Source of the DNA: Escherichia coli
Lineage (GTDB): Bacteria; Pseudomonadota; Gammaproteobacteria; Enterobacterales; Enterobacteriaceae
Length of the DNA stretch: 64,000 nucleotides
Assembly (NCBI RefSeq): GCF_965641715.1
Contig: NZ_OZ282453.1
Reading direction: 5' to 3' (one strand)
A program made the position numbers and the translations under genes. Numbering within the stretch: position 1 is the stretch's first letter; every line of letters begins with the position of its first letter. The notes beneath the pieces are model-generated. The model searched no databases. It was not told where the DNA came from and saw nothing but the letters and a program-made list of their open reading frames with translations. Below, piece after piece: positions 2,352 through 47,149 of this stretch.

Positions 2352-2800
2352 AATTATAATAAATATTATTGTTGAATGTTATATTATTATTCCTGTGTGA
2401 TACATTGAGCAAAGGTGCATTCATCTTCGTCAAAGATATTATTAAATGCTGGTTTTGAAAAAAGTTCATCGGATAAGATATAGTCACGAAATAAGTATCT
2501 GCTAATATTTTGTGATTTCTTTTTCAGAACGTCGAACGGGATTTTCTTATTTAAGATATCAGAATCTTATGATTTGGGTAAAATTCTAAATAAATCAACA
2601 TGTCACTAAAATCATCATAGCCATTAGCTATTTCGGCTAAAATAGAGACTACATGTCTTCGGTCCATCTCACTTAAGGAGTGTAGTTCCGTTGTAAGTTT
2701 TTCCATAGCTTGCATTGCTAAATTTCGAACAAGGAATTTTCTGGTGGTAATCTCTAAAAAGATGGCATGGTTTACAATGATTTTTGTTTCCTTTTGATTA

Positions 2801-7607: not shown

Positions 7608-8603
7608 ATGAAAAAGAAAAGACCCGTACTTCAGGATGTGGCTGACCGTGTAGGCGTGACCAAAATGACGGTCAGCCGTTTTTTACGCAACCCGGAGCAG
7701 GTTTCCGTCGCTCTACGCGGCAAGATTGCCGCGGCTCTTGATGAACTGGGCTATATTCCCAATCGTGCGCCCGATATCCTCTCTAACGCCACCAGCCGGG
7801 CGATTGGCGTCCTGTTACCTTCTCTCACCAACCAGGTTTTCGCGGAAGTATTACGCGGAATCGAAAGCGTCACCGACGCGCACGGTTATCAGACCATGCT
7901 GGCGCACTACGGTTATAAACCGGAAATGGAGCAAGAACGTCTCGAATCCATGCTCTCATGGAATATCGACGGACTGATCCTCACCGAACGTACCCACACG
8001 CCGCGCACCTTAAAGATGATTGAAGTGGCGGGGATTCCCGTGGTGGAACTCATGGACAGCCAGTCGCCGTGCCTCGATATCGCCGTCGGTTTTGATAACT
8101 TTGAAGCGGCACGCCAGATGACCACCGCCATTATTGCTCGCGGGCATCGCCACATTGCCTATCTCGGCGCACGTCTCGACGAACGTACTATCATCAAACA
8201 GAAGGGATACGAACAGGCGATGCTGGATGCAGGCCTGGTGCCATATAGCGTGATGGTTGAGCAATCTTCTTCTTACTCTTCCGGTATTGAACTGATTCGC
8301 CAGGCGCGGCGGGAATATCCGCAGCTGGATGGCGTGTTCTGTACTAATGATGATCTGGCGGTCGGCGCGGCGTTTGAATGTCAGCGTCTGGGGTTAAAAG
8401 TTCCTGACGATATGGCGATTGCCGGTTTCCACGGTCATGACATTGGTCAGGTGATGGAGCCACGACTTGCGAGCGTGCTGACGCCGCGTGAGCGGATGGG
8501 CAGTATTGGCGCTGAACGCCTGCTGGCGCGTATTCGTGGCGAATCTGTGACACCGAAAATGTTAGATTTAGGTTTCACCTTGTCACCGGGCGGATCTATT
8601 TAA
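7608..8603 (+). CDS. gntR: LacI-family gluconate repressor
   Basis: 331-aa ORF; N-terminal HTH (LQDVADRVGVTKMTVSRFL) plus periplasmic-binding-like effector domain; precedes gntK-gntU. Confidence 0.95.
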   Translation: MKKKRPVLQDVADRVGVTKMTVSRFLRNPEQVSVALRGKIAAALDELGYIPNRAPDILSNATSRAIGVLLPSLTNQVFAEVLRGIESVTDAHGYQTMLAHYGYKPEMEQERLESMLSWNIDGLILTERTHTPRTLKMIEVAGIPVVELMDSQSPCLDIAVGFDNFEAARQMTTAIIARGHRHIAYLGARLDERTIIKQKGYEQAMLDAGLVPYSVMVEQSSSYSSGIELIRQARREYPQLDGVFCTNDDLAVGAAFECQRLGLKVPDDMAIAGFHGHDIGQVMEPRLASVLTPRERMGSIGAERLLARIRGESVTPKMLDLGFTLSPGGSI

Positions 8604-8682
8604 GCCCACAAATTTGAAGTAGCTCACACTTATACACTTAAGGCACGGATGGATATTGCTTCTGATAATGTCCGGCTGGACA

Positions 8683-8711
8683 ATGTTACCGATAACAGTT
8701 ACCCGTAACAT
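8683..8711. promoter_or_regulatory. GntR operator (palindromic) in the gntK promoter region
   Basis: ATGTTACCGATAACAGTTACCCGTAACAT at 8683..8711, two ATGTTAC-type half-sites, ~30 bp upstream of the gntK TTG start. Confidence 0.6.
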
Positions 8712-8741
8712 TTTTAATTCTTGTATTGTGGGGGCACCACT

Positions 8742-9269
8742 TTGAGCACGACTAACCATGATCACCACGTTTACGTCTTGATGGGCGTATCGGGCAGCGG
8801 CAAATCTGCGGTCGCAAGTGAAGTGGCGCATCAACTTCATGCCGCGTTTCTTGATGGCGATTTCCTCCATCCACGGCGCAATATCGAAAAAATGGCGTCT
8901 GGCGAACCGCTGAATGACGACGATCGCAAACCGTGGTTGCAGGCGCTGAACGACGCTGCGTTTGCTATGCAGCGCACTAATAAAGTGTCGCTGATCGTCT
9001 GTTCTGCATTGAAAAAACACTATCGCGACTTGCTGCGTGAAGGTAATCCGAATCTCTCTTTCATCTACCTGAAAGGCGATTTTGATGTGATTGAAAGCCG
9101 CCTGAAAGCGCGCAAAGGCCATTTCTTTAAAACCCAAATGTTGGTGACGCAGTTTGAAACGCTGCAGGAGCCGGGTGCGGACGAAACCGATGTACTGGTG
9201 GTGGATATCGATCAACCGCTGGAAGGTGTTGTGGCAAGCACCATTGAGGTTATTAAAAAAGGCAAATAA
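8742..9269 (+). CDS. gntK: gluconokinase (thermoresistant), TTG start
   Basis: Frame of ORF 8721..9269; MSTTNHDHHVYVLMGVSGSGKSAV (P-loop) begins at TTG 8742..8744; 175 aa. Confidence 0.85.
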   Translation: MSTTNHDHHVYVLMGVSGSGKSAVASEVAHQLHAAFLDGDFLHPRRNIEKMASGEPLNDDDRKPWLQALNDAAFAMQRTNKVSLIVCSALKKHYRDLLREGNPNLSFIYLKGDFDVIESRLKARKGHFFKTQMLVTQFETLQEPGADETDVLVVDIDQPLEGVVASTIEVIKKGK

Positions 9270-9272
9270 GTA

Positions 9273-10613
9273 GTGACTACATTAACGCTTGTTTTAACAG
9301 CAGTAGGGTCTGTTTTACTGCTGCTGTTTTTAGTCATGAAGGCGCGTATGCACGCTTTCCTGGCTTTGATGGTGGTGTCCATGGGGGCTGGCCTTTTTTC
9401 CGGTATGCCGCTCGATAAAATCGCAGCGACGATGGAAAAAGGGATGGGAGGCACCCTCGGCTTCCTGGCGGTGGTTGTCGCCCTGGGAGCTATGTTTGGC
9501 AAGATCTTACATGAAACCGGCGCAGTCGATCAGATTGCCGTCAAAATGCTCAAATCCTTCGGTCACAGCCGCGCGCATTATGCCATCGGCCTTGCGGGGC
9601 TGGTCTGTGCGCTACCGCTGTTCTTTGAAGTGGCGATTGTTCTGCTGATTAGCGTTGCTTTCTCAATGGCGCGCCACACCGGTACGAACCTGGTGAAGCT
9701 GGTAATCCCATTATTCGCAGGCGTGGCGGCAGCGGCGGCGTTCCTGGTGCCAGGGCCAGCGCCAATGCTGCTGGCATCGCAGATGAACGCCGATTTTGGC
9801 TGGATGATCCTGATTGGCCTGTGTGCGGCAATTCCGGGAATGATTATTGCCGGGCCGCTGTGGGGTAACTTCATCAGCCGTTACGTTGAGCTGCATATTC
9901 CTGATGACATCAGCGAGCCGCATCTCGGCGAAGGCAAAATGCCGTCCTTCGGATTCAGCCTGTCGCTGATCCTGCTGCCGCTGGTGCTGGTGGGGCTGAA
10001 AACCATTGCCGCGCGTTTTGTGCCAGAAGGCTCTACCGCTTACGAATGGTTCGAGTTTATTGGTCATCCGTTTACCGCGATTCTGGTTGCTTGTCTGGTA
10101 GCGATTTATGGCCTGGCAATGCGTCAGGGCATGCCAAAAGACAAAGTGATGGAGATTTGCGGTCACGCGCTGCAACCGGCGGGGATCATTCTGCTGGTGA
10201 TTGGTGCGGGCGGCGTGTTCAAACAGGTGCTGGTTGACTCTGGCGTAGGTCCGGCACTGGGCGAAGCGTTAACCGGCATGGGCCTGCCGATTGCTATCAC
10301 CTGCTTCGTGCTGGCCGCTGCAGTGCGCATCATTCAGGGTTCTGCAACCGTTGCCTGTTTAACGGCGGTGGGACTGGTGATGCCGGTTATTGAACAACTG
10401 AACTACTCCGGTGCGCAAATGGCGGCGCTGTCGATTTGTATCGCCGGTGGTTCGATTGTTGTCAGCCACGTTAACGACGCTGGTTTCTGGTTGTTCGGTA
10501 AATTTACCGGCGCGACCGAAGCCGAAACGCTGAAAACCTGGACCATGATGGAAACCATCCTCGGCACTGTCGGTGCCATCGTTGGGATGATTGCGTTCCA
10601 GCTGTTGAGTTAA
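9273..10613 (+). CDS. gntU: low-affinity gluconate:H+ symporter (GntP family)
   Basis: 446-aa polytopic membrane ORF beginning GTG (MTTLTLVLTAVGSV...); paralogous to gntT in this window. Confidence 0.9.
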   Translation: MTTLTLVLTAVGSVLLLLFLVMKARMHAFLALMVVSMGAGLFSGMPLDKIAATMEKGMGGTLGFLAVVVALGAMFGKILHETGAVDQIAVKMLKSFGHSRAHYAIGLAGLVCALPLFFEVAIVLLISVAFSMARHTGTNLVKLVIPLFAGVAAAAAFLVPGPAPMLLASQMNADFGWMILIGLCAAIPGMIIAGPLWGNFISRYVELHIPDDISEPHLGEGKMPSFGFSLSLILLPLVLVGLKTIAARFVPEGSTAYEWFEFIGHPFTAILVACLVAIYGLAMRQGMPKDKVMEICGHALQPAGIILLVIGAGGVFKQVLVDSGVGPALGEALTGMGLPIAITCFVLAAAVRIIQGSATVACLTAVGLVMPVIEQLNYSGAQMAALSICIAGGSIVVSHVNDAGFWLFGKFTGATEAETLKTWTMMETILGTVGAIVGMIAFQLLS

Positions 10614-10625
10614 TTACTGCGACAA

Positions 10626-10665
10626 ATTACTGCGAGCTTGCTCGCAGTAATTCATTTCTCTTTTC
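10626..10665 (+). terminator. gntU terminator hairpin
   Basis: Perfect inverted repeat ATTACTGCGA (10626..10635) / TCGCAGTAAT (10642..10651) followed by TCATTTCTCTTTTC. Confidence 0.6.
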
Positions 10666-10698
10666 TCCTCTCTTCATCTTTTTGATCTCTCTCGCAAA

Positions 10699-10747
10699 TT
10701 TACCTGCAAATAATCCGTTCTAATCACTGCCTAAAGATCGCAGGAGA
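10699..10747 (+). promoter_or_regulatory. candidate sigma70 promoter and RBS for the RecQ-like gene
   Basis: TTTACC (10699..10704), 16-nt spacer, TAATCA (10721..10726); AGGAGA (10742..10747) 5 nt upstream of the ATG at 10753. Confidence 0.3.
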
Positions 10748-10752
10748 TAAAG

Positions 10753-12849
10753 ATGGAAAAGCACGCAGCTGAATTGCTTTTACAGCGGATGTTAGGAAAT
10801 ACCACCGCTACTTTCAGGGAAGGGCAATGGGAAGCCATAGACGCGGTGGTGAACCAACGGCGAAAACTGCTGGTTGTCCAACGCACTGGCTGGGGGAAAA
10901 GTGCTGTGTACTTCATCGCCAGTAAAATCTTCCGCGATCGCGGCGCTGGCCCGACAATTATCATCTCTCCTTTGCTTGCCCTGATGCGTAACCAGGTTGC
11001 CGCCGCTGAACGGTTAGGTATTACGGCTGAAACGTTGAATTCTACAAACAGAGAAGAATGGCAGCGCATTAGCGATAAGTTGCTGCAAGGTGAGGTCGAT
11101 TGCTTGCTGGTTTCCCCGGAACGTTTGGCAAACCAGGACTTTATCGAAACGGTTTTATATCCTATAGCCGATCGTATTGGCTTGCTTGTGGTCGACGAGG
11201 CGCACTGCATCTCTGATTGGGGCCACGATTTTCGCCCGGATTACCGACGTATATTAGATATTTTGCGCCAACTACCTGCGAATACCCCTGTTCTGGGTAC
11301 AACCGCGACAGCGAATAACCGTGTCGTTGAGGATATCCGTCAGCAATTGGGTGACATTGTGATTCAGCGTGGAACGCTGGCTCGCGAAAGTTTGGCGCTT
11401 GATGCCTTAGTCTTAGGTGAACAGTCATCCCGTCTGGCATGGTTAGCAACGGTTATCCCTCAGTTTTCCAAATCGGGAATTGTTTATACCCTGACTACTC
11501 GCGATGCCGAACTTGTCGCCGAGTGGTTAAGGAAAAATGGTATCAGTGCATTTGCTTACTACAGCGGCGTGACTTGCGAAGGCGCGGAAGATTCTAATAC
11601 TGCCAGGGAATATCTGGAGCAGGCGTTGCTGGCAAATAAAATTAAAGTGCTGGTTGCGACAACGGCGCTGGGAATGGGCTTTGACAAACCGGATTTGGGG
11701 TTTGTTATTCATTACCAGATGCCAGGTTCGATAGTTGGTTACTACCAACAGGTGGGGCGTGCCGGTCGCGGTATCGATTCTGCTGTTGGCATACTGCTTT
11801 GCGGCAGTGAAGACCGTGCTATTCATAAATTCTTCCGTGAAAGCGCCTTTCCTGCGGAGGCGCAAATTCATGAAATACTCAACGTACTTAGCGTGAATGA
11901 CGGTCTTACCTTACGAGGCATTGAACAACGGACGAATCTCCGTTATGGGCAAATAGAAAAAGCACTGAAATTATTGGTAGCTGAAAATCCATCGCCTGTG
12001 GTGTATACCGAGAAATTATGGCGCAGAACAATTGTCAGTTTTTCTCCTGACCATGAACGAATTAACCATTTGATGAATCAGAGAAAAAGTGAGCTGGCAG
12101 ACGTTGAAAGCTATATCACGACCAAGGAGTGCAAAATGCAATTTCTGCGCCGCGCACTCGATGAGCCAGGTGCCGAACATTGTGGTAAATGTAGCAGTTG
12201 TCTTCAGCATCCGTTGTTGTCGCCCGACATTGATAGCGGCTTACTCCATGCGGCAAACTTATTTATTAAACACGCTGACCTGCCATTAAATCTCAATAAA
12301 CAGGTGGCAGCTGGGGCTTTTACGCAATACGGATTTAAAGGGAACTTGCCTGCGAGTTTACAAGGATCTACGGGGCGAATCCTTTCTCGTTGGGGAGATT
12401 CCGGGTGGGGAAAGCAGGTAGCACAGGAGAAAAAAACGGGGCGATTCAGTGATGAACTGGTGGAGGCATGTGCGGAAATGGTTCGCCAACGCTGGAATCC
12501 GCATCCTGAACCAACCTGGGTATGCTGCGTTCCTTCATTAAAGCACCTCGACCTGGTTCCTGATTTTGCCCGGCGACTGGCGGCGAAACTTGGCTTACCT
12601 TTTATTGATGCCATTGAAAAAGTCGTGGACAATCCACCGCAGAAAATGCAGCAAAACCGTTTCCACCAGTGTCAAAATCTCGACGGGGCGTTTGTGATTA
12701 CCCCTCCTTTGATGCCTGGTCCGGCGTTGCTGGTTGACGATATCGTGGATTCTGCATGGACGCTGACAGTTCTGACAGCACTGTTACGCCAGGCAGGTTG
12801 CCCGACGGTTTATCCTCTTGCCCTTGCTTCTACCTCGGTAAAAAATTGA
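10753..12849 (+). CDS. RecQ-like superfamily-2 DNA helicase fused to a C-terminal divergent phosphoribosyltransferase (ComF/GntX-like) domain; candidate toxin/effector of a two-gene module
   Basis: 698-aa ORF. Walker A QRTGWGKSAV, DEAH box LLVVDEAHCISDWGHDFR, motif VI QQVGRAGRG, Cys cluster CKMQ...HCGKCSSC, C-terminal PRTase-like fold with altered PRPP loop (LLVDDIVDSAWTL). Strong AGGAGA RBS. Confidence 0.85.
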   Translation: MEKHAAELLLQRMLGNTTATFREGQWEAIDAVVNQRRKLLVVQRTGWGKSAVYFIASKIFRDRGAGPTIIISPLLALMRNQVAAAERLGITAETLNSTNREEWQRISDKLLQGEVDCLLVSPERLANQDFIETVLYPIADRIGLLVVDEAHCISDWGHDFRPDYRRILDILRQLPANTPVLGTTATANNRVVEDIRQQLGDIVIQRGTLARESLALDALVLGEQSSRLAWLATVIPQFSKSGIVYTLTTRDAELVAEWLRKNGISAFAYYSGVTCEGAEDSNTAREYLEQALLANKIKVLVATTALGMGFDKPDLGFVIHYQMPGSIVGYYQQVGRAGRGIDSAVGILLCGSEDRAIHKFFRESAFPAEAQIHEILNVLSVNDGLTLRGIEQRTNLRYGQIEKALKLLVAENPSPVVYTEKLWRRTIVSFSPDHERINHLMNQRKSELADVESYITTKECKMQFLRRALDEPGAEHCGKCSSCLQHPLLSPDIDSGLLHAANLFIKHADLPLNLNKQVAAGAFTQYGFKGNLPASLQGSTGRILSRWGDSGWGKQVAQEKKTGRFSDELVEACAEMVRQRWNPHPEPTWVCCVPSLKHLDLVPDFARRLAAKLGLPFIDAIEKVVDNPPQKMQQNRFHQCQNLDGAFVITPPLMPGPALLVDDIVDSAWTLTVLTALLRQAGCPTVYPLALASTSVKN

Positions 12850-14051
12850 TGAATCTTTCAGCCAATGCACAAGCAACTCTCCTGCTAACCAGCGATTTTT
12901 CTCGCGCGGCGGCGAGTGAGTATAAACCTCTTAGTAATAGTGAATGGGGGAAGTTTGCATTATGGCTGAAGCACCAACGTATCAGTCCCGCCGAGCTTCT
13001 GGTGCCGCAACCGCAAGAGAAACTTACAGGCTGGAGCGATCCGCGTATTTCTCAGGAGCGTATTCTTGGCTTGCTGGCGCGTGGTCATAGTCTGGCGTTG
13101 GCGGTAGATAAGTGGCAACGCGCCGGTTTATGGATCTTAACCCGCGGAGATGCTGATTATCCCGTTCGCTTGAAAAACCGATTGCGAACGGATGCACCTC
13201 CCGTTTTATTTGGCTGCGGGAATAAAGCATTACTGCAAGCGGAAGGTATGGCGATTGTTGGCTCGCGAGATGCTCCGACTGACGATTTGCGCTATACCCA
13301 ACAACTGGCCGCGAAACTGGCCCAACAGGGGATTTGCGTTATCTCTGGTGGTGCGCGAGGTATTGATGAATGTGCAATGGCGTCGGCACTGGAGGCCGGG
13401 GGAACTGCCGTTGGCGTATTAGCTGATAGCTTGTTAAAAACGAGTACGTTAGTGAAATGGCGTGAAGGGCTTATAGCAGGCAACCTGGTGTTGATTTCGC
13501 CGTTTTACCCAGAGGTACGTTTCACCGTCGGCAATGCGATGGCGCGAAATAAATATATTTATTGCCTTGCTGAAAGCGCAATGGTTGTACGTGCGGGAAT
13601 GACCGGTGGAACGATAACCGGGGCGATGGAGGCATTAAAACATCAGTGGCTGCCTGTGCAGGTTAAACCAAATCAGGATATGCAATCAGCCAATTCACGA
13701 TTAGTAGAAAATGGGGCGTCATGGAGTGCTGAACAGGCTGAGAATGTGACGATCAGACTGCCAGACGTTCCTGGGCTGATGTATGACAGAGCACTCCGTA
13801 ACGCTCAACCAGAACTGTTTTCGCTGCATGAAGATGACGCAAATTACGCAGTAATGCCCGCGTATACGCCTGTCGATTTTTATCAACTCTTTGTGGCGGA
13901 ACTGGCGATCCTTGCAAAGGAATCGATAAGTATTGAAAGGCTGGCGTCTTGTACTGGTTTAACCATCGAACAAATTAGTGTGTGGCTGAACCGCGCAGAA
14001 GAAGAGGGAAGGGTTATCCGATTGGGCGAAGGTCATTATCAGTTCAGGTAA
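12849..14051 (+). CDS. DprA/Smf-like protein; candidate antitoxin/partner of the RecQ-PRTase protein
   Basis: ATG at 12849..12851 overlaps the helicase TGA (12847..12849); 400 aa (MNLSANAQATLLL...); Rossmann signature GMAIVGSRDAPTDDLRYTQQLAAKLAQQGICVISGGARGIDECAMASALEAGG; ORF track extends it upstream in the same frame (12756). Confidence 0.8.
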   Translation: MNLSANAQATLLLTSDFSRAAASEYKPLSNSEWGKFALWLKHQRISPAELLVPQPQEKLTGWSDPRISQERILGLLARGHSLALAVDKWQRAGLWILTRGDADYPVRLKNRLRTDAPPVLFGCGNKALLQAEGMAIVGSRDAPTDDLRYTQQLAAKLAQQGICVISGGARGIDECAMASALEAGGTAVGVLADSLLKTSTLVKWREGLIAGNLVLISPFYPEVRFTVGNAMARNKYIYCLAESAMVVRAGMTGGTITGAMEALKHQWLPVQVKPNQDMQSANSRLVENGASWSAEQAENVTIRLPDVPGLMYDRALRNAQPELFSLHEDDANYAVMPAYTPVDFYQLFVAELAILAKESISIERLASCTGLTIEQISVWLNRAEEEGRVIRLGEGHYQFR

Positions 14052-14053
14052 TA

Positions 14054-14091
14054 AAACAGGTGCCGCGTCTGGTTGTGTGCAGCACCTGTTT
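14054..14091. terminator. inverted repeat / likely bidirectional terminator between the DprA-like gene and yhgN
   Basis: AAACAGGTGC (14054..14063) / GCACCTGTTT (14082..14091), 18-nt loop. Confidence 0.4.
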
Positions 14092-14096
14092 GAACC

Positions 14097-45472: not shown

Positions 45473-46789
45473 TCAAATCACCATATTCAGCAGCAGACAG
45501 CCTACCAGACCGCACACCGAGATAATGGTTTCCAGCATCGACCAGGATTTGATGGTCTCGCCGATAGTCAGGTTAAAGTACTCTTTGAACAGCCAGAAGC
45601 CCGGATCGTTCACATGAGAGAAAATCACACTACCGGAACCAACCGCAATAACCATCAGCTCCGGGCTAACACCCGTCGTTGCAATCAGCGGTGCCGCGAT
45701 ACCACCCGCAGTGATTGCCGCAACGGTTGCGGAACCCAGCGCGATACGCAGTACGGCAGCAATCGACCAGGCCATCAGCAGCGGAGAAATGTTGGTTTCG
45801 TGCATCATGGAAGCAATGTATTTGTCCACGACGCTGTCTACCAGCACCTGCTTGAACGCACCGCCACCACCGATGATCAACAGCATCATCGCAATGATTT
45901 TGATGGAAGAAACCAGCGTGTCGTTAATCTGATCCATTGAACGACCACGGTTTAGACCAAAGGTGAACATCGCAATCAGCACGGCAATCAGCGTAGCCAT
46001 TACCGGGTCACCGAGGAACTCCGCTACCGGCAGGAAAGCGTGACCTTTCGGCAGGATCATTTCGGCAATCGCACGCATCGCCATCAGTACTACCGGCACC
46101 AGAGAGGTCCAGACGCTGACGCCAAAGCTCGGCATCTCTTCTTCGCTGAAGGTTTTCGCGCTGTAGAGACCTTCCGGAATTGGCTTATCGATACCTTTCA
46201 ACACGCGAGCGTAAACCGGACCGGCGAGAATCACGGTCGGGATTGCCAGAATAGTACCGTACAGCAGGGTTTTACCCATATCGGCATTGAAAATGGTGGC
46301 AATCGCAGTCGGACCCGGATGCGGTGGCAGGAAGCCGTGGGTCACAGACAGTGCAGCCGCCATTGGTACACCAACATACAGCAGTGGAATATTCGCAGAA
46401 GCCGCGATGGTAAACACCAGCGGCAGCATCAGCACAAAGCCCACTTCATAGAACAGGGCAAAACCAACGGTAAAACCGGTCAGTACCACCGCCCACTGGA
46501 TGTGTTTTTTACCAAATTTGGCAATCAGCGTGGTGGCGATACGTTGTGCGCCACCGCAGTCTGCCAGCATTTTGCCCAGCATTGCGCCAAAACCCATGAT
46601 CAGGGCAAGGCTACCGAGCGTCCCGCCGACACCGGCTTTGATGGAGCCAATAACTTTATCCAGCGGCATTCCTTGCATTAATCCAACAGCAAGCGCCACG
46701 AGGACGAGAGCGATGAAGCCGTTCATTTTGAAGCGGATCATCAGGAGCAACAACAAGATTACACCGATAGCAACAATGACTAATGGCAT
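45473..46789 (-). CDS. gntT: high-affinity gluconate:H+ symporter (GntP family)
   Basis: 438-aa polytopic ORF; paralogue of gntU. Confidence 0.95.
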   Translation of the reverse strand: MPLVIVAIGVILLLLLMIRFKMNGFIALVLVALAVGLMQGMPLDKVIGSIKAGVGGTLGSLALIMGFGAMLGKMLADCGGAQRIATTLIAKFGKKHIQWAVVLTGFTVGFALFYEVGFVLMLPLVFTIAASANIPLLYVGVPMAAALSVTHGFLPPHPGPTAIATIFNADMGKTLLYGTILAIPTVILAGPVYARVLKGIDKPIPEGLYSAKTFSEEEMPSFGVSVWTSLVPVVLMAMRAIAEMILPKGHAFLPVAEFLGDPVMATLIAVLIAMFTFGLNRGRSMDQINDTLVSSIKIIAMMLLIIGGGGAFKQVLVDSVVDKYIASMMHETNISPLLMAWSIAAVLRIALGSATVAAITAGGIAAPLIATTGVSPELMVIAVGSGSVIFSHVNDPGFWLFKEYFNLTIGETIKSWSMLETIISVCGLVGCLLLNMVI

Positions 46790-46930
46790 GATTTACCTGG
46801 CCTTTCATTTGTTATGGGTAACGTCAATTTTCTGACGACAAACTCTAATTATCCCAATCGGGAACAGAGATATTGCGGCACCACGACTGATACCCACTAA
46901 AACTAATTATTGTAGTCAGATGTCAGGAGT

Positions 46931-46965
46931 ATGTTTGGTACCCATGTGAATGATACGGGTAACAT
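46931..46965. promoter_or_regulatory. GntR operator-like palindromes in the gntT promoter region
   Basis: Minus strand reads ATGTTACCCGTATCATTCACATGGGTACCAAACAT; the ATGTTACCCGTA half-sites match the gntK operator at 8683..8711. Confidence 0.55.
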
Positions 46966-47093
46966 CTGGCGTTTGAGAATCACCAGAGCGGGGTAAATTT
47001 AAATTATGAGAGGTTGGTCATATTATCGCGGGGAAACGAAGGGAGGGATTTGCCAAAGCAATGCTGCGCCAACGTCTGGCACATGTTCAACGT

Positions 47094-47149
<56 letters not shown>

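What the first reader, a model, noticed from the sequence alone, without database searches (positions are those of the whole stretch)
8683..8711. GntR operator palindromes shared by the gntK and gntT promoters
The gntK upstream palindrome ATGTTACCGATAACAGTTACCCGTAACAT (8683..8711) and the gntT upstream palindromes (46931..46965, minus-strand ATGTTACCCGTATCAT...) share ATGTTACC half-sites. This fits the known GntR control of both gluconate transport/kinase loci and ties the two ends of the window into one regulon.
Basis: partly seen in the sequence, partly recalled or inferred. Interest (0 to 1): 0.2.

Follow-up and report, generated by a model that had tools for sequence, protein, structure and literature searches.

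The report
Known GntR operators at gntK/gntT
These short palindromes are the already well-characterised DNA sites where the E. coli gluconate repressor GntR sits to switch off the gluconate kinase/transporter genes, so the finding is correct in substance but ordinary.

Summary
The window is an E. coli chromosome. The 29-mer at 8683-8711 is exactly as quoted. It is two 16-bp GntR operators offset by 13 bp (8683-8698, 8696-8711), not one palindrome, and lies 31-59 nt upstream of the gntK TTG start. At gntT, only 46950-46965 (minus strand ATGTTACCCGTATCAT, overlapping the predicted -10 TATCAT) is an operator.

A consensus scan finds only these four sites in 64 kb (about 0.4 hits expected by chance). 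Two of them are letter-for-letter the GntR operators used in published gluconate switches. In a scan of species-representative genomes, 101 of 120 double-site hits lie just upstream of a gntK homologue. In a 15%-diverged E. coli gntT leader allele, both operators are untouched.

The repressor encoded next door is a LacI/GalR-family protein, not a GntR-family one. Most likely mechanism: GntR occludes the -10/+1 region, gluconate releases it, and CRP activates from about -71.5. This is already known and of low interest. No such site precedes the neighbouring helicase gene, which belongs to a PsyrTA defence/toxin-antitoxin insert.

The parts
8683..8698 (+). gntK operator 1 (ATGTTACCGATAACAG), a 16-bp pseudo-palindrome. 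It covers about -9..+7 of the inferred gntK promoter.
   Evidence: Sequence. 3 mismatches to the consensus. Identical to the functional GntR site in PMC10450161. Conserved in 15 Enterobacterales genera.
8696..8711 (+). gntK operator 2 (CAGTTACCCGTAACAT). It is offset 13 bp from operator 1 and overlaps it by 3 bp. It covers about +5..+20.
   Evidence: 2 mismatches to the consensus. The 13-bp-offset arrangement is described as functional at gntKU in PMC4052901. Conserved across genera.
8679..8684 (+). Inferred gntK -10 hexamer GACAAT. Its last two bases are the first two bases of operator 1.
   Evidence: Inference from the conserved GAnAAT column block in the 15-genus alignment. It did not pass the simple promoter scan.
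8656..8661 (+). Inferred gntK -35 hexamer TTGCTT, 17-nt spacer to GACAAT.
   Evidence: TTG invariant and the following C conserved in at least 80% of the 15 genera. Inference; the TSS was not measured here.
8613..8628 (+). CRP-like site TTTGA-N6-TCACA. Its centre at 8620.5 is -71.5 if +1 is 8692.
   Evidence: Conserved block. CRP activation of the gnt genes is stated in PMC2230225. The position is inferred.
7608..8603 (+). gntR, the LacI/GalR-family gluconate repressor (331 aa).
   Evidence: Pfam LacI HTH PF00356 plus Peripla_BP_1/3. RefSeq annotation of a 99.7%-identical locus.
8742..9269 (+). gntK, gluconokinase (175 aa, TTG start).
   Evidence: RefSeq CDS boundaries mapped from L001. Kinase-type Pfam hits.
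9273..10613 (+). gntU, a GntP-family gluconate transporter co-transcribed with gntK.
   Evidence: Pfam GntP_permease, E = 2e-168. Annotation.
46950..46965 (-). gntT operator 1 (ATGTTACCCGTATCAT). It covers about -22..-7 and contains the -10 hexamer TATCAT (46955-46950).
   Evidence: 1 mismatch to the consensus. Identical to the published 16-bp operator. Predicted promoter TTCTCA-18-TATCAT. 0 of 16 substitutions in the diverged allele.
46809..46824 (-). gntT operator 2 (ACGTTACCCATAACAA) in the 5' leader, about +120..+135 and 141 bp centre-to-centre from operator 1.
   Evidence: 3 mismatches to the consensus. 0 of 16 substitutions in the diverged allele, with substitutions at 46806 and 46827-46828 either side. 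My recollection of Peekhaus & Conway 1998 (a second operator near +120) is unverified here.
46974..46979 (-). Predicted gntT -35 hexamer TTCTCA.
   Evidence: Promoter scan. Invariant in the diverged allele.
47007..47022 (-). CRP-like site TATGA-N6-TCTCA. Its centre at 47014.5 is -71.5 if +1 is 46943.
   Evidence: Read from the sequence. 0 of 22 substitutions across 47004-47025 in the diverged allele. CRP activation of gntT is cited in PMC2230225. The position is inferred.
45473..46789 (-). gntT, the high-affinity gluconate transporter (438 aa).
   Evidence: Pfam GntP_permease, E = 9e-188. RefSeq annotation.

Best explanation
These are the cis-acting operators of the E. coli gluconate repressor GntR, a LacI/GalR-family dimer encoded at 7608-8603. 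There are four 16-bp pseudo-palindromes of the type ATGTTACC-CGTAACAT. At gntK, two operators offset by 13 bp (8683-8698, 8696-8711) lie over the end of the -10 element, the transcription start and the first ~20 transcribed bases. Bound GntR therefore blocks RNA polymerase binding, open-complex formation or promoter escape. At gntT, operator 1 (46965-46950) fills the spacer and the -10 hexamer, which is direct competition with RNA polymerase. Operator 2 (46824-46809) lies about 120-135 nt into the leader, where it could act as a roadblock or as an auxiliary site that raises local occupancy, possibly by looping. Gluconate, and 6-phosphogluconate at higher concentration, binds the periplasmic-binding-protein-like core of GntR and lowers its DNA affinity. 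This de-represses both units. Both promoters have weak -35 elements and a CRP-like site centred at about -71.5, so full expression also needs cAMP-CRP. What is shown: sequence identity to experimentally used operators, motif enrichment, conservation, and the family of the repressor. What is inferred: the exact transcription starts, the -35/-10/CRP assignments, and how the second site at each locus contributes.
For: The motif scan finds only these four sites in 64 kb against 0.36 expected matches. No other hit has <=3 mismatches, and of the three 4-mismatch hits two lie inside long ORFs and one lies in AT-rich sequence without GTTAC cores. 8683-8698 is the functional GntR recognition site of PMC10450161, where deleting it or inserting 2 bp at its centre abolishes the response. 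46950-46965 is the GntR operator of bioRxiv 10.1101/2023.01.10.523462, where GntR repressed and gluconate relieved transcription in a purified system and TATCAT served as the -10. PMC4052901 reports that the 13-bp overlapping GntR sites at gntKU are experimentally functional and conserved in gamma-proteobacteria. GntR binding to the gntT promoter is inhibited by gluconate and 6-phosphogluconate, and CRP activates (PMC2230225 citing Peekhaus & Conway; PMC3877293 Table 1). PgntK and PgntT are repressed more than 5-fold by GntR. The repressor is LacI family. In the genome scan for the double site, 101 of the 120 returned loci have it <400 nt upstream of a gntK homologue of 64-98% identity, in genera from Escherichia to Photorhabdus, Proteus and Edwardsiella. 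The 15-genus alignment shows the double operator as the most conserved block of the intergenic region. The 35-mer around it is at least 99% identical in 5327 of 5426 complete E. coli genomes. In the diverged gntT leader allele, 54 of 360 positions differ but 0 of 32 operator positions do (hypergeometric p about 0.004), and substitutions abut both sites.
Against: No binding or expression experiment exists for this particular strain. The primary papers (Izu 1997, Porco 1997, Peekhaus & Conway 1998, Tsunedomi 2003) and RegulonDB could not be read here, so footprint boundaries and transcription starts come from secondary citations, from my inference, or from memory. The gntK promoter did not pass the simple sigma-70 scan. 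The genome scan was conditional on the motif, so it shows specificity (motif implies gntK) and not how many gntK genes carry the motif. The 141-bp spacing of the gntT sites is about 13.4 helical turns, which is not obviously in phase for looping. How two dimers share a 3-bp overlap is structurally unexplained (PMC4052901).
Confidence: 0.95

Rival explanations
1. The sites are primarily targets of the paralogous LacI-family regulator IdnR (GntH) of the GntII/idonate system rather than of GntR. Alternatively, they are shared operators on which the two paralogues compete.
For: [quoted passage not shown]
Against: gntR is encoded immediately upstream of the gntK operators. GntR alone is sufficient for repression on these exact sequences in purified and heterologous systems. 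Cross-binding by IdnR would add to the GntR explanation and would not replace it. No idn genes are in the window.
Confidence: 0.03
2. The palindromes act as nucleic-acid hairpins (a gntR terminator, a leader attenuator or another structured RNA), not as protein-binding sites.
For: The 29-mer can fold into an 8-bp-stem hairpin, and 46926-46970 can pair the left half of operator 1 with GGGTACC...AAACAT.
Against: Folding energies are no better than shuffles (z = -1.2 and -1.3; the single 16-mers fold at about 0 kcal/mol). No terminator-like site was found at 8560-8800. No Rfam family matches either region; the only hits are a sub-threshold REP-like naRNA4 match at 47096-47135 and a spurious lncRNA hit. 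With the inferred start sites, half of the gntK 29-mer and all of gntT operator 1 are not transcribed. Conservation across genera keeps the GTTAC/GTAAC cores and does not show compensatory pair changes.
Confidence: 0.01
3. The resemblance between the two loci is a chance similarity of short AT-rich palindromes.
For: The shared octamer ATGTTACC alone is not very unusual: 5 matches against 1.47 expected, and 2 of 100 shuffles reach 5.
Against: The 16-mer consensus is strongly enriched and found only at the gnt promoters. Two sites are exactly the published operators. The sites are conserved across genera and across a diverged allele.
Confidence: 0.005

Closest known systems
E. coli K-12 GntR operators of the GntI regulon (gntKU and gntT; Izu et al. 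1997, Porco et al. 1997, Peekhaus & Conway 1998, Tsunedomi et al. 2003a)
   Same: The gntT upstream region 46770-47010 is 100% identical to K-12 W3110. 8683-8698 and 46950-46965 equal the operator sequences quoted from those papers. The gntK pair has the same 13-bp overlapping arrangement. The flanking genes are the same.
   Different: Nothing in the operators themselves differs. This strain additionally carries a PsyrTA insert downstream of gntU, which has no GntR site.
LacI/GalR-family operators in general (LacI, PurR, GalR, CcpA; 16-20-bp palindromes with a central CG, auxiliary operators)
   Same: The sites are even-length pseudo-palindromes with half-sites GTTAC/GTAAC around a central CG or CC. 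The regulator has a LacI HTH domain and a periplasmic-binding-protein core. An auxiliary downstream operator at gntT recalls lacO2 and the galOI site.
   Different: The gntK pair overlaps by 3 bp at a 13-bp offset. PMC4052901 notes this is hard to reconcile with known LacI-family DNA complexes. Whether GntR tetramerises or loops DNA was not established here.
GntR-family (winged-helix HTH, Pfam PF00392) repressors such as Bacillus subtilis GntR
   Same: The name is the same, and so is the physiological role: a gluconate-released repressor of gluconate uptake and kinase genes.
   Different: The protein family and operator type are different. The E. coli protein has a LacI-type HTH and no PF00392 domain. 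Some literature conflates the two, for example the discussion in the bioRxiv preprint.

Membership tests
E. coli-type GntR (LacI/GalR family) operator | 16-bp pseudo-palindrome matching the consensus ATGTTACCCGTAACAT | tested here: met
   The four sites have 3, 2, 1 and 3 mismatches. There are no others at <=3 mismatches in 64 kb, and 0.36 matches are expected by chance.
E. coli-type GntR (LacI/GalR family) operator | Identity to sequences shown experimentally to mediate GntR binding and gluconate response | tested here: met
   8683-8698 is ATGTTACCGATAACAG, as in PMC10450161. 46950-46965 is ATGTTACCCGTATCAT, as in bioRxiv 10.1101/2023.01.10.523462. No quoted sequence could be retrieved for 8696-8711 or 46809-46824, so those two rest on motif and conservation.
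E. coli-type GntR (LacI/GalR family) operator | Position within the promoter or leader of a gluconate uptake/catabolism operon | tested here: met
   The sites lie 31-59 nt upstream of the gntK start and 161-176 and 20-35 nt upstream of the gntT start. gntT operator 1 overlaps the predicted -10.
E. coli-type GntR (LacI/GalR family) operator | A cognate LacI-family GntR repressor is encoded in the genome | tested here: met
   gntR lies at 7608-8603 and has PF00356 plus PF00532/PF13377. It is annotated as GntR in a 99.7%-identical locus.
E. coli-type GntR (LacI/GalR family) operator | Evolutionary conservation at orthologous loci | tested here: met
   101 of 120 genome hits lie upstream of gntK homologues. 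The double operator is the conserved block in 15 genera. 0 of 32 operator positions differ in the 15%-diverged gntT allele.
E. coli-type GntR (LacI/GalR family) operator | Direct GntR binding and gluconate-dependent release on this strain's DNA | not testable with these tools
   This needs EMSA, footprinting or ChIP. It is known for K-12 only through secondary citations.
GntR-family (PF00392 winged-helix) regulator/operator system | The regulator carries the GntR-type winged-helix HTH domain | tested here: not met
   Pfam finds LacI-type HTH and periplasmic-binding-protein domains only.
Intrinsic terminator / structured leader RNA | A stable GC-rich hairpin with a U-tract, or a match to a curated RNA family | tested here: not met
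   No terminator-like site was found at 8560-8800. Folding z-scores are -1.2 to +0.5. No relevant Rfam hit.

The most novel reading that the evidence does not exclude
The conserved 13-bp-offset, 3-bp-overlapping operator pair at gntK may not be two independent dimer sites. It could be a distinct LacI-family binding mode, for example mutually exclusive registers, a distorted or partly unwound DNA complex, or a platform where GntR and its paralogue IdnR/GntH compete. Ravcheev et al. 2014 flagged this arrangement as structurally unexplained. The very strong conservation of the exact architecture from Escherichia to Proteus and Photorhabdus fits a constraint on the pair as a unit.
Probability: 0.15. 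Interest if true: 0.35.

Novelty: already known. Interest (0 to 1): 0.07.

Why it matters
It matters little as a discovery. GntR control of gntKU and gntT has been textbook E. coli regulation since 1997-2003, and the operators are already used as synthetic-biology parts. The value here is a corrected map: four operators, two per locus, with inferred positions relative to the promoters and the CRP-like sites. It also shows by natural variation that both gntT operators, including the leader site, are under purifying selection. The one residual open point is mechanistic: how LacI-family dimers occupy operators that overlap at a 13-bp offset.

Tried and rejected
1. I tried to read the primary papers (PMC107090, PMC150117, PMC178870, PMC107313). 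None is held, so footprint coordinates and measured transcription starts could not be checked. RegulonDB is not available.
2. A full-text search for the four operator sequences found only the two papers already identified. Nothing quoted 8696-8711 or 46809-46824.
3. The supplements of PMC4052901 hold only regulon counts, not site lists.
4. The simple sigma-70 scan found no gntK promoter. I inferred one from cross-genus conservation instead. I rejected GATAAT at 8664-8669 as the -10 because it is not conserved outside Escherichia.
5. I rejected 46931-46945 as a GntR site.
6. I rejected the 4-mismatch hits. 38138 and 54163 lie inside long ORFs. 2569 lies in AT-rich sequence without GTTAC cores.
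7. The hairpin, terminator and Rfam explanations were tested and rejected.
8. There is no GntR-like site upstream of the helicase gene.
9. I did not run an unbiased cross-genus survey of gntT leaders.

Full report
**Where we are.** The window is an Escherichia coli chromosome. The stretch 8300-9300 matches 5424 of 5426 complete E. coli genomes at 95% identity or more, and is annotated there as gntR-gntK-gntU. From the ORF lists, Pfam and the RefSeq annotation of a 99.7%-identical locus, the genes are:
- gntR: 7608-8603 (+)
- gntK: 8742-9269 (+), TTG start
- gntU: 9273-10613 (+)
- gntT: 46789-45473 (-)

gntT lies between malQ and nfuA/gntX/bioH.

**Checking the observation.**
- The 29-mer ATGTTACCGATAACAGTTACCCGTAACAT sits exactly at 8683-8711 and is 24/29 self-complementary.
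- ATGTTACCCGTATCAT is on the minus strand at 46950-46965.
- The published GntR consensus is ATGTTACCCGTAACAT, quoted in PMC10450161 from Porco et al. 1997. At up to 3 mismatches it gives 6 strand-matches in the 64-kb window. They collapse to four sites: 8683-8698, 8696-8711, 46950-46965 and 46809-46824.
- Dinucleotide-preserving shuffles give 0.36 +/- 0.61 matches, and none of 100 shuffles reaches 6.
- No other position has 3 or fewer mismatches. Of the three 4-mismatch positions, two lie inside long ORFs. The third lies in AT-rich sequence and lacks the GTTAC cores.

**Corrections to the anatomy.**
1. The gntK '29-bp palindrome' is two 16-bp operators offset by 13 bp and sharing 3 bp.
2. The other half, 46931-46945 (ATGGGTACCAAACAT on the minus strand), is 8/15 self-complementary and, by my own count, matches the consensus at 5 of 16 positions. 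It can pair with the left half of the true operator in a fold no better than shuffles (z = -1.3).
3. The second gntT operator is elsewhere, at 46809-46824 (ACGTTACCCATAACAA), 141 bp downstream in the leader.

**Literature identity.**
[quoted passage not shown] It was the better of two GntR recognition sites. Deleting it, or inserting 2 bp at its centre, abolished the gluconate-dependent response.
[quoted passage not shown] It showed GntR repression and gluconate relief in a purified transcription-translation system.
- PMC4052901 states that overlapping sites about 13 bp apart have been shown to be functional for GntR upstream of E. coli gntKU (Tsunedomi et al. 2003a). It adds that the arrangement is conserved for more than half of GntR-regulated operons in gamma-proteobacteria.
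- PMC2230225 and PMC3877293 summarise that E. coli GntR binding to the gntT promoter is relieved by gluconate, and by 6-phosphogluconate at higher concentration. They also note that cAMP-CRP activates the gnt genes.
- PMC13386637 shows PgntK and PgntT reporters repressed more than 5-fold by GntR.
- The primary papers themselves are not in the held library.

**Independent conservation evidence: gntK.** I scanned one genome per species (GTDB representatives) for the double-site skeleton TGTTACNNNTAACNNTTACNNNTAAC.
- My own estimate is roughly nine chance matches in 298 Gb at equal base frequencies.
- In 101 of them the motif midpoint lies within 400 nt upstream of a tblastn-detected gntK homologue of 64-98% identity. 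In most it is 32-100 nt upstream.
- These loci span Escherichia, Salmonella, Citrobacter, Klebsiella, Enterobacter, Cedecea, Hafnia, Edwardsiella, Photorhabdus, Providencia and Proteus.
- Five more lie upstream of distant LacI-family genes. The rest are truncated loci or unrelated taxa.
- The scan was conditional on the motif, so it shows specificity, not prevalence.

An alignment of the 190 nt upstream of gntK from 15 genera shows four conserved islands in otherwise diverged sequence:
- a CRP-like TTTGA-N6-TCACA block (window 8613-8628)
- a TTGC block (TTGCTT, 8656-8661)
- a GAnAAT block (GACAAT, 8679-8684)
- the double operator

Within E. coli, the 35-mer around the operators is at least 99% identical in 5327 of 5426 genomes.

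**Independent conservation evidence: gntT.** E. coli carries two deeply diverged alleles of the nfuA-gntT intergenic region. 4333 genomes are at least 99% identical to the window, and 920 are only 80-90% identical. I aligned the window with strain NRG 857C.
- 54 of 360 intergenic positions differ.
- None of the 32 operator positions differs (hypergeometric p about 0.004).
- Substitutions lie just outside both operators: 46966-46968 and 46947 around operator 1, and 46827-46828 and 46806 around operator 2.
- The predicted -35 and the CRP-like site are also untouched.

**Mechanism (inferred steps marked).** The repressor is a LacI/GalR-family protein, with a LacI HTH domain and Peripla_BP domains. 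It shares only a name with the winged-helix 'GntR family'.
- At gntK, the conserved TTGCTT-17 nt-GACAAT implies a start near 8692 (inference). This puts the CRP-like site at -71.5, operator 1 at about -9..+7 and operator 2 at about +5..+20. Bound GntR would then occlude RNA polymerase at the -10/+1 region.
- At gntT, the scan predicts TTCTCA-18 nt-TATCAT, with a start near 46943 (inference). This puts the CRP-like site TATGA-N6-TCTCA (47022-47007) at -71.5.
- On that numbering, gntT operator 1 lies at -22..-7 and operator 2 at +120..+135. This agrees with my unverified recollection that Peekhaus & Conway placed one operator over the -10 and another near +120.
- Gluconate binding releases GntR. 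Weak -35 hexamers explain the dependence on CRP.
- Two points were not established here: whether the two gntT sites cooperate by looping (141 bp is about 13.4 helical turns), and how two dimers share the overlapping gntK sites. PMC4052901 calls the second point structurally puzzling.

**Rivals.**
- Hairpin, terminator or riboregulator readings fail. No terminator-like site was found, folding is no better than shuffles, and there is no relevant Rfam hit.
- Cross-regulation by the paralogue IdnR/GntH is documented in the titles and statements cited by PMC4052901. It adds to GntR control and does not replace it.
- Chance is excluded.

The region upstream of the RecQ-like gene (10614-10760) has no GntR-like site; the best match has 7 of 16 mismatches. 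That gene and its neighbour are PsyrT and PsyrA (PADLOC E = 0 and 1.5e-202). They form an insert between gntU and yhgN that is present in 1650 of 5426 E. coli genomes and absent from others. It is a separate mobile unit and not part of the gluconate regulon.

**Verdict.** Three anatomical details needed correction. The feature is already known, so interest is low.

Noticed in passing
window 10614-14096: There is a two-gene insert between gntU and yhgN. It encodes a RecQ-like helicase (10753-12849) matching PADLOC PsyrT (E = 0) and a DprA-like protein (12756-14051) matching PsyrA (E = 1.5e-202). This is the PsyrTA toxin-antitoxin / candidate anti-phage system. It is present at >=95% identity in 1650 of 5426 complete E. 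coli genomes and absent from the otherwise closest gnt locus (PapM-32-1). It has no GntR site upstream.
   Followed up: partly
window 46790-47149 (nfuA-gntT intergenic region); L122 1359-1721: E. coli has two deeply diverged alleles of the gntT promoter/leader. 4333 genomes are >=99% identical to the window and 920 genomes are only 80-90% identical (for example O83:H1 NRG 857C), with few intermediates. Over the intergenic region 54 of 360 positions differ, which is far above typical within-species divergence and suggests an old recombination import. The GntR operators, the -35 and the CRP-like site are all spared.
   Followed up: partly
window 47051-47135: A REP-like palindromic element lies just downstream of nfuA (GCCCGATGCGACGCTAAAGCGTCATTTCGGGCC on the minus strand). 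It gives a sub-threshold Rfam naRNA4 match (27.5 bits against a gathering score of 59.5). A terminator-like hairpin lies at 47083-47065.
   Followed up: no
window 8721-8744: The mechanical ORF list starts gntK at a TTG at 8721. The RefSeq-annotated start maps to the TTG at 8742, preceded by GGGGG at 8730-8734. gntK therefore uses a non-ATG start in E. coli and several relatives, whereas more distant genera have ATG at the same aligned position.
   Followed up: partly
L017, L032, L037, L101, L116; L002, L049, L085, L097: The same 13-bp-offset double palindrome, often perfect (TGTTACCGGTAAC-N-GTTACCGGTAACA), also occurs upstream of distant LacI-family genes (27-30% identity to GntR) in Advenella and unclassified Proteobacteria MAGs. 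It also occurs in some loci outside Proteobacteria, such as Streptomyces harenosi (L049) and an Actinomycetes MAG (L002). This suggests the overlapping-operator architecture is used well beyond Enterobacterales.
   Followed up: no
window 2400-2760: An AT-rich stretch with only short ORFs holds a 4-mismatch pseudo-match to the GntR consensus at 2569-2584. The match lacks the GTTAC cores and I judged it to be chance. The region looks like degraded or horizontally acquired sequence.
   Followed up: no
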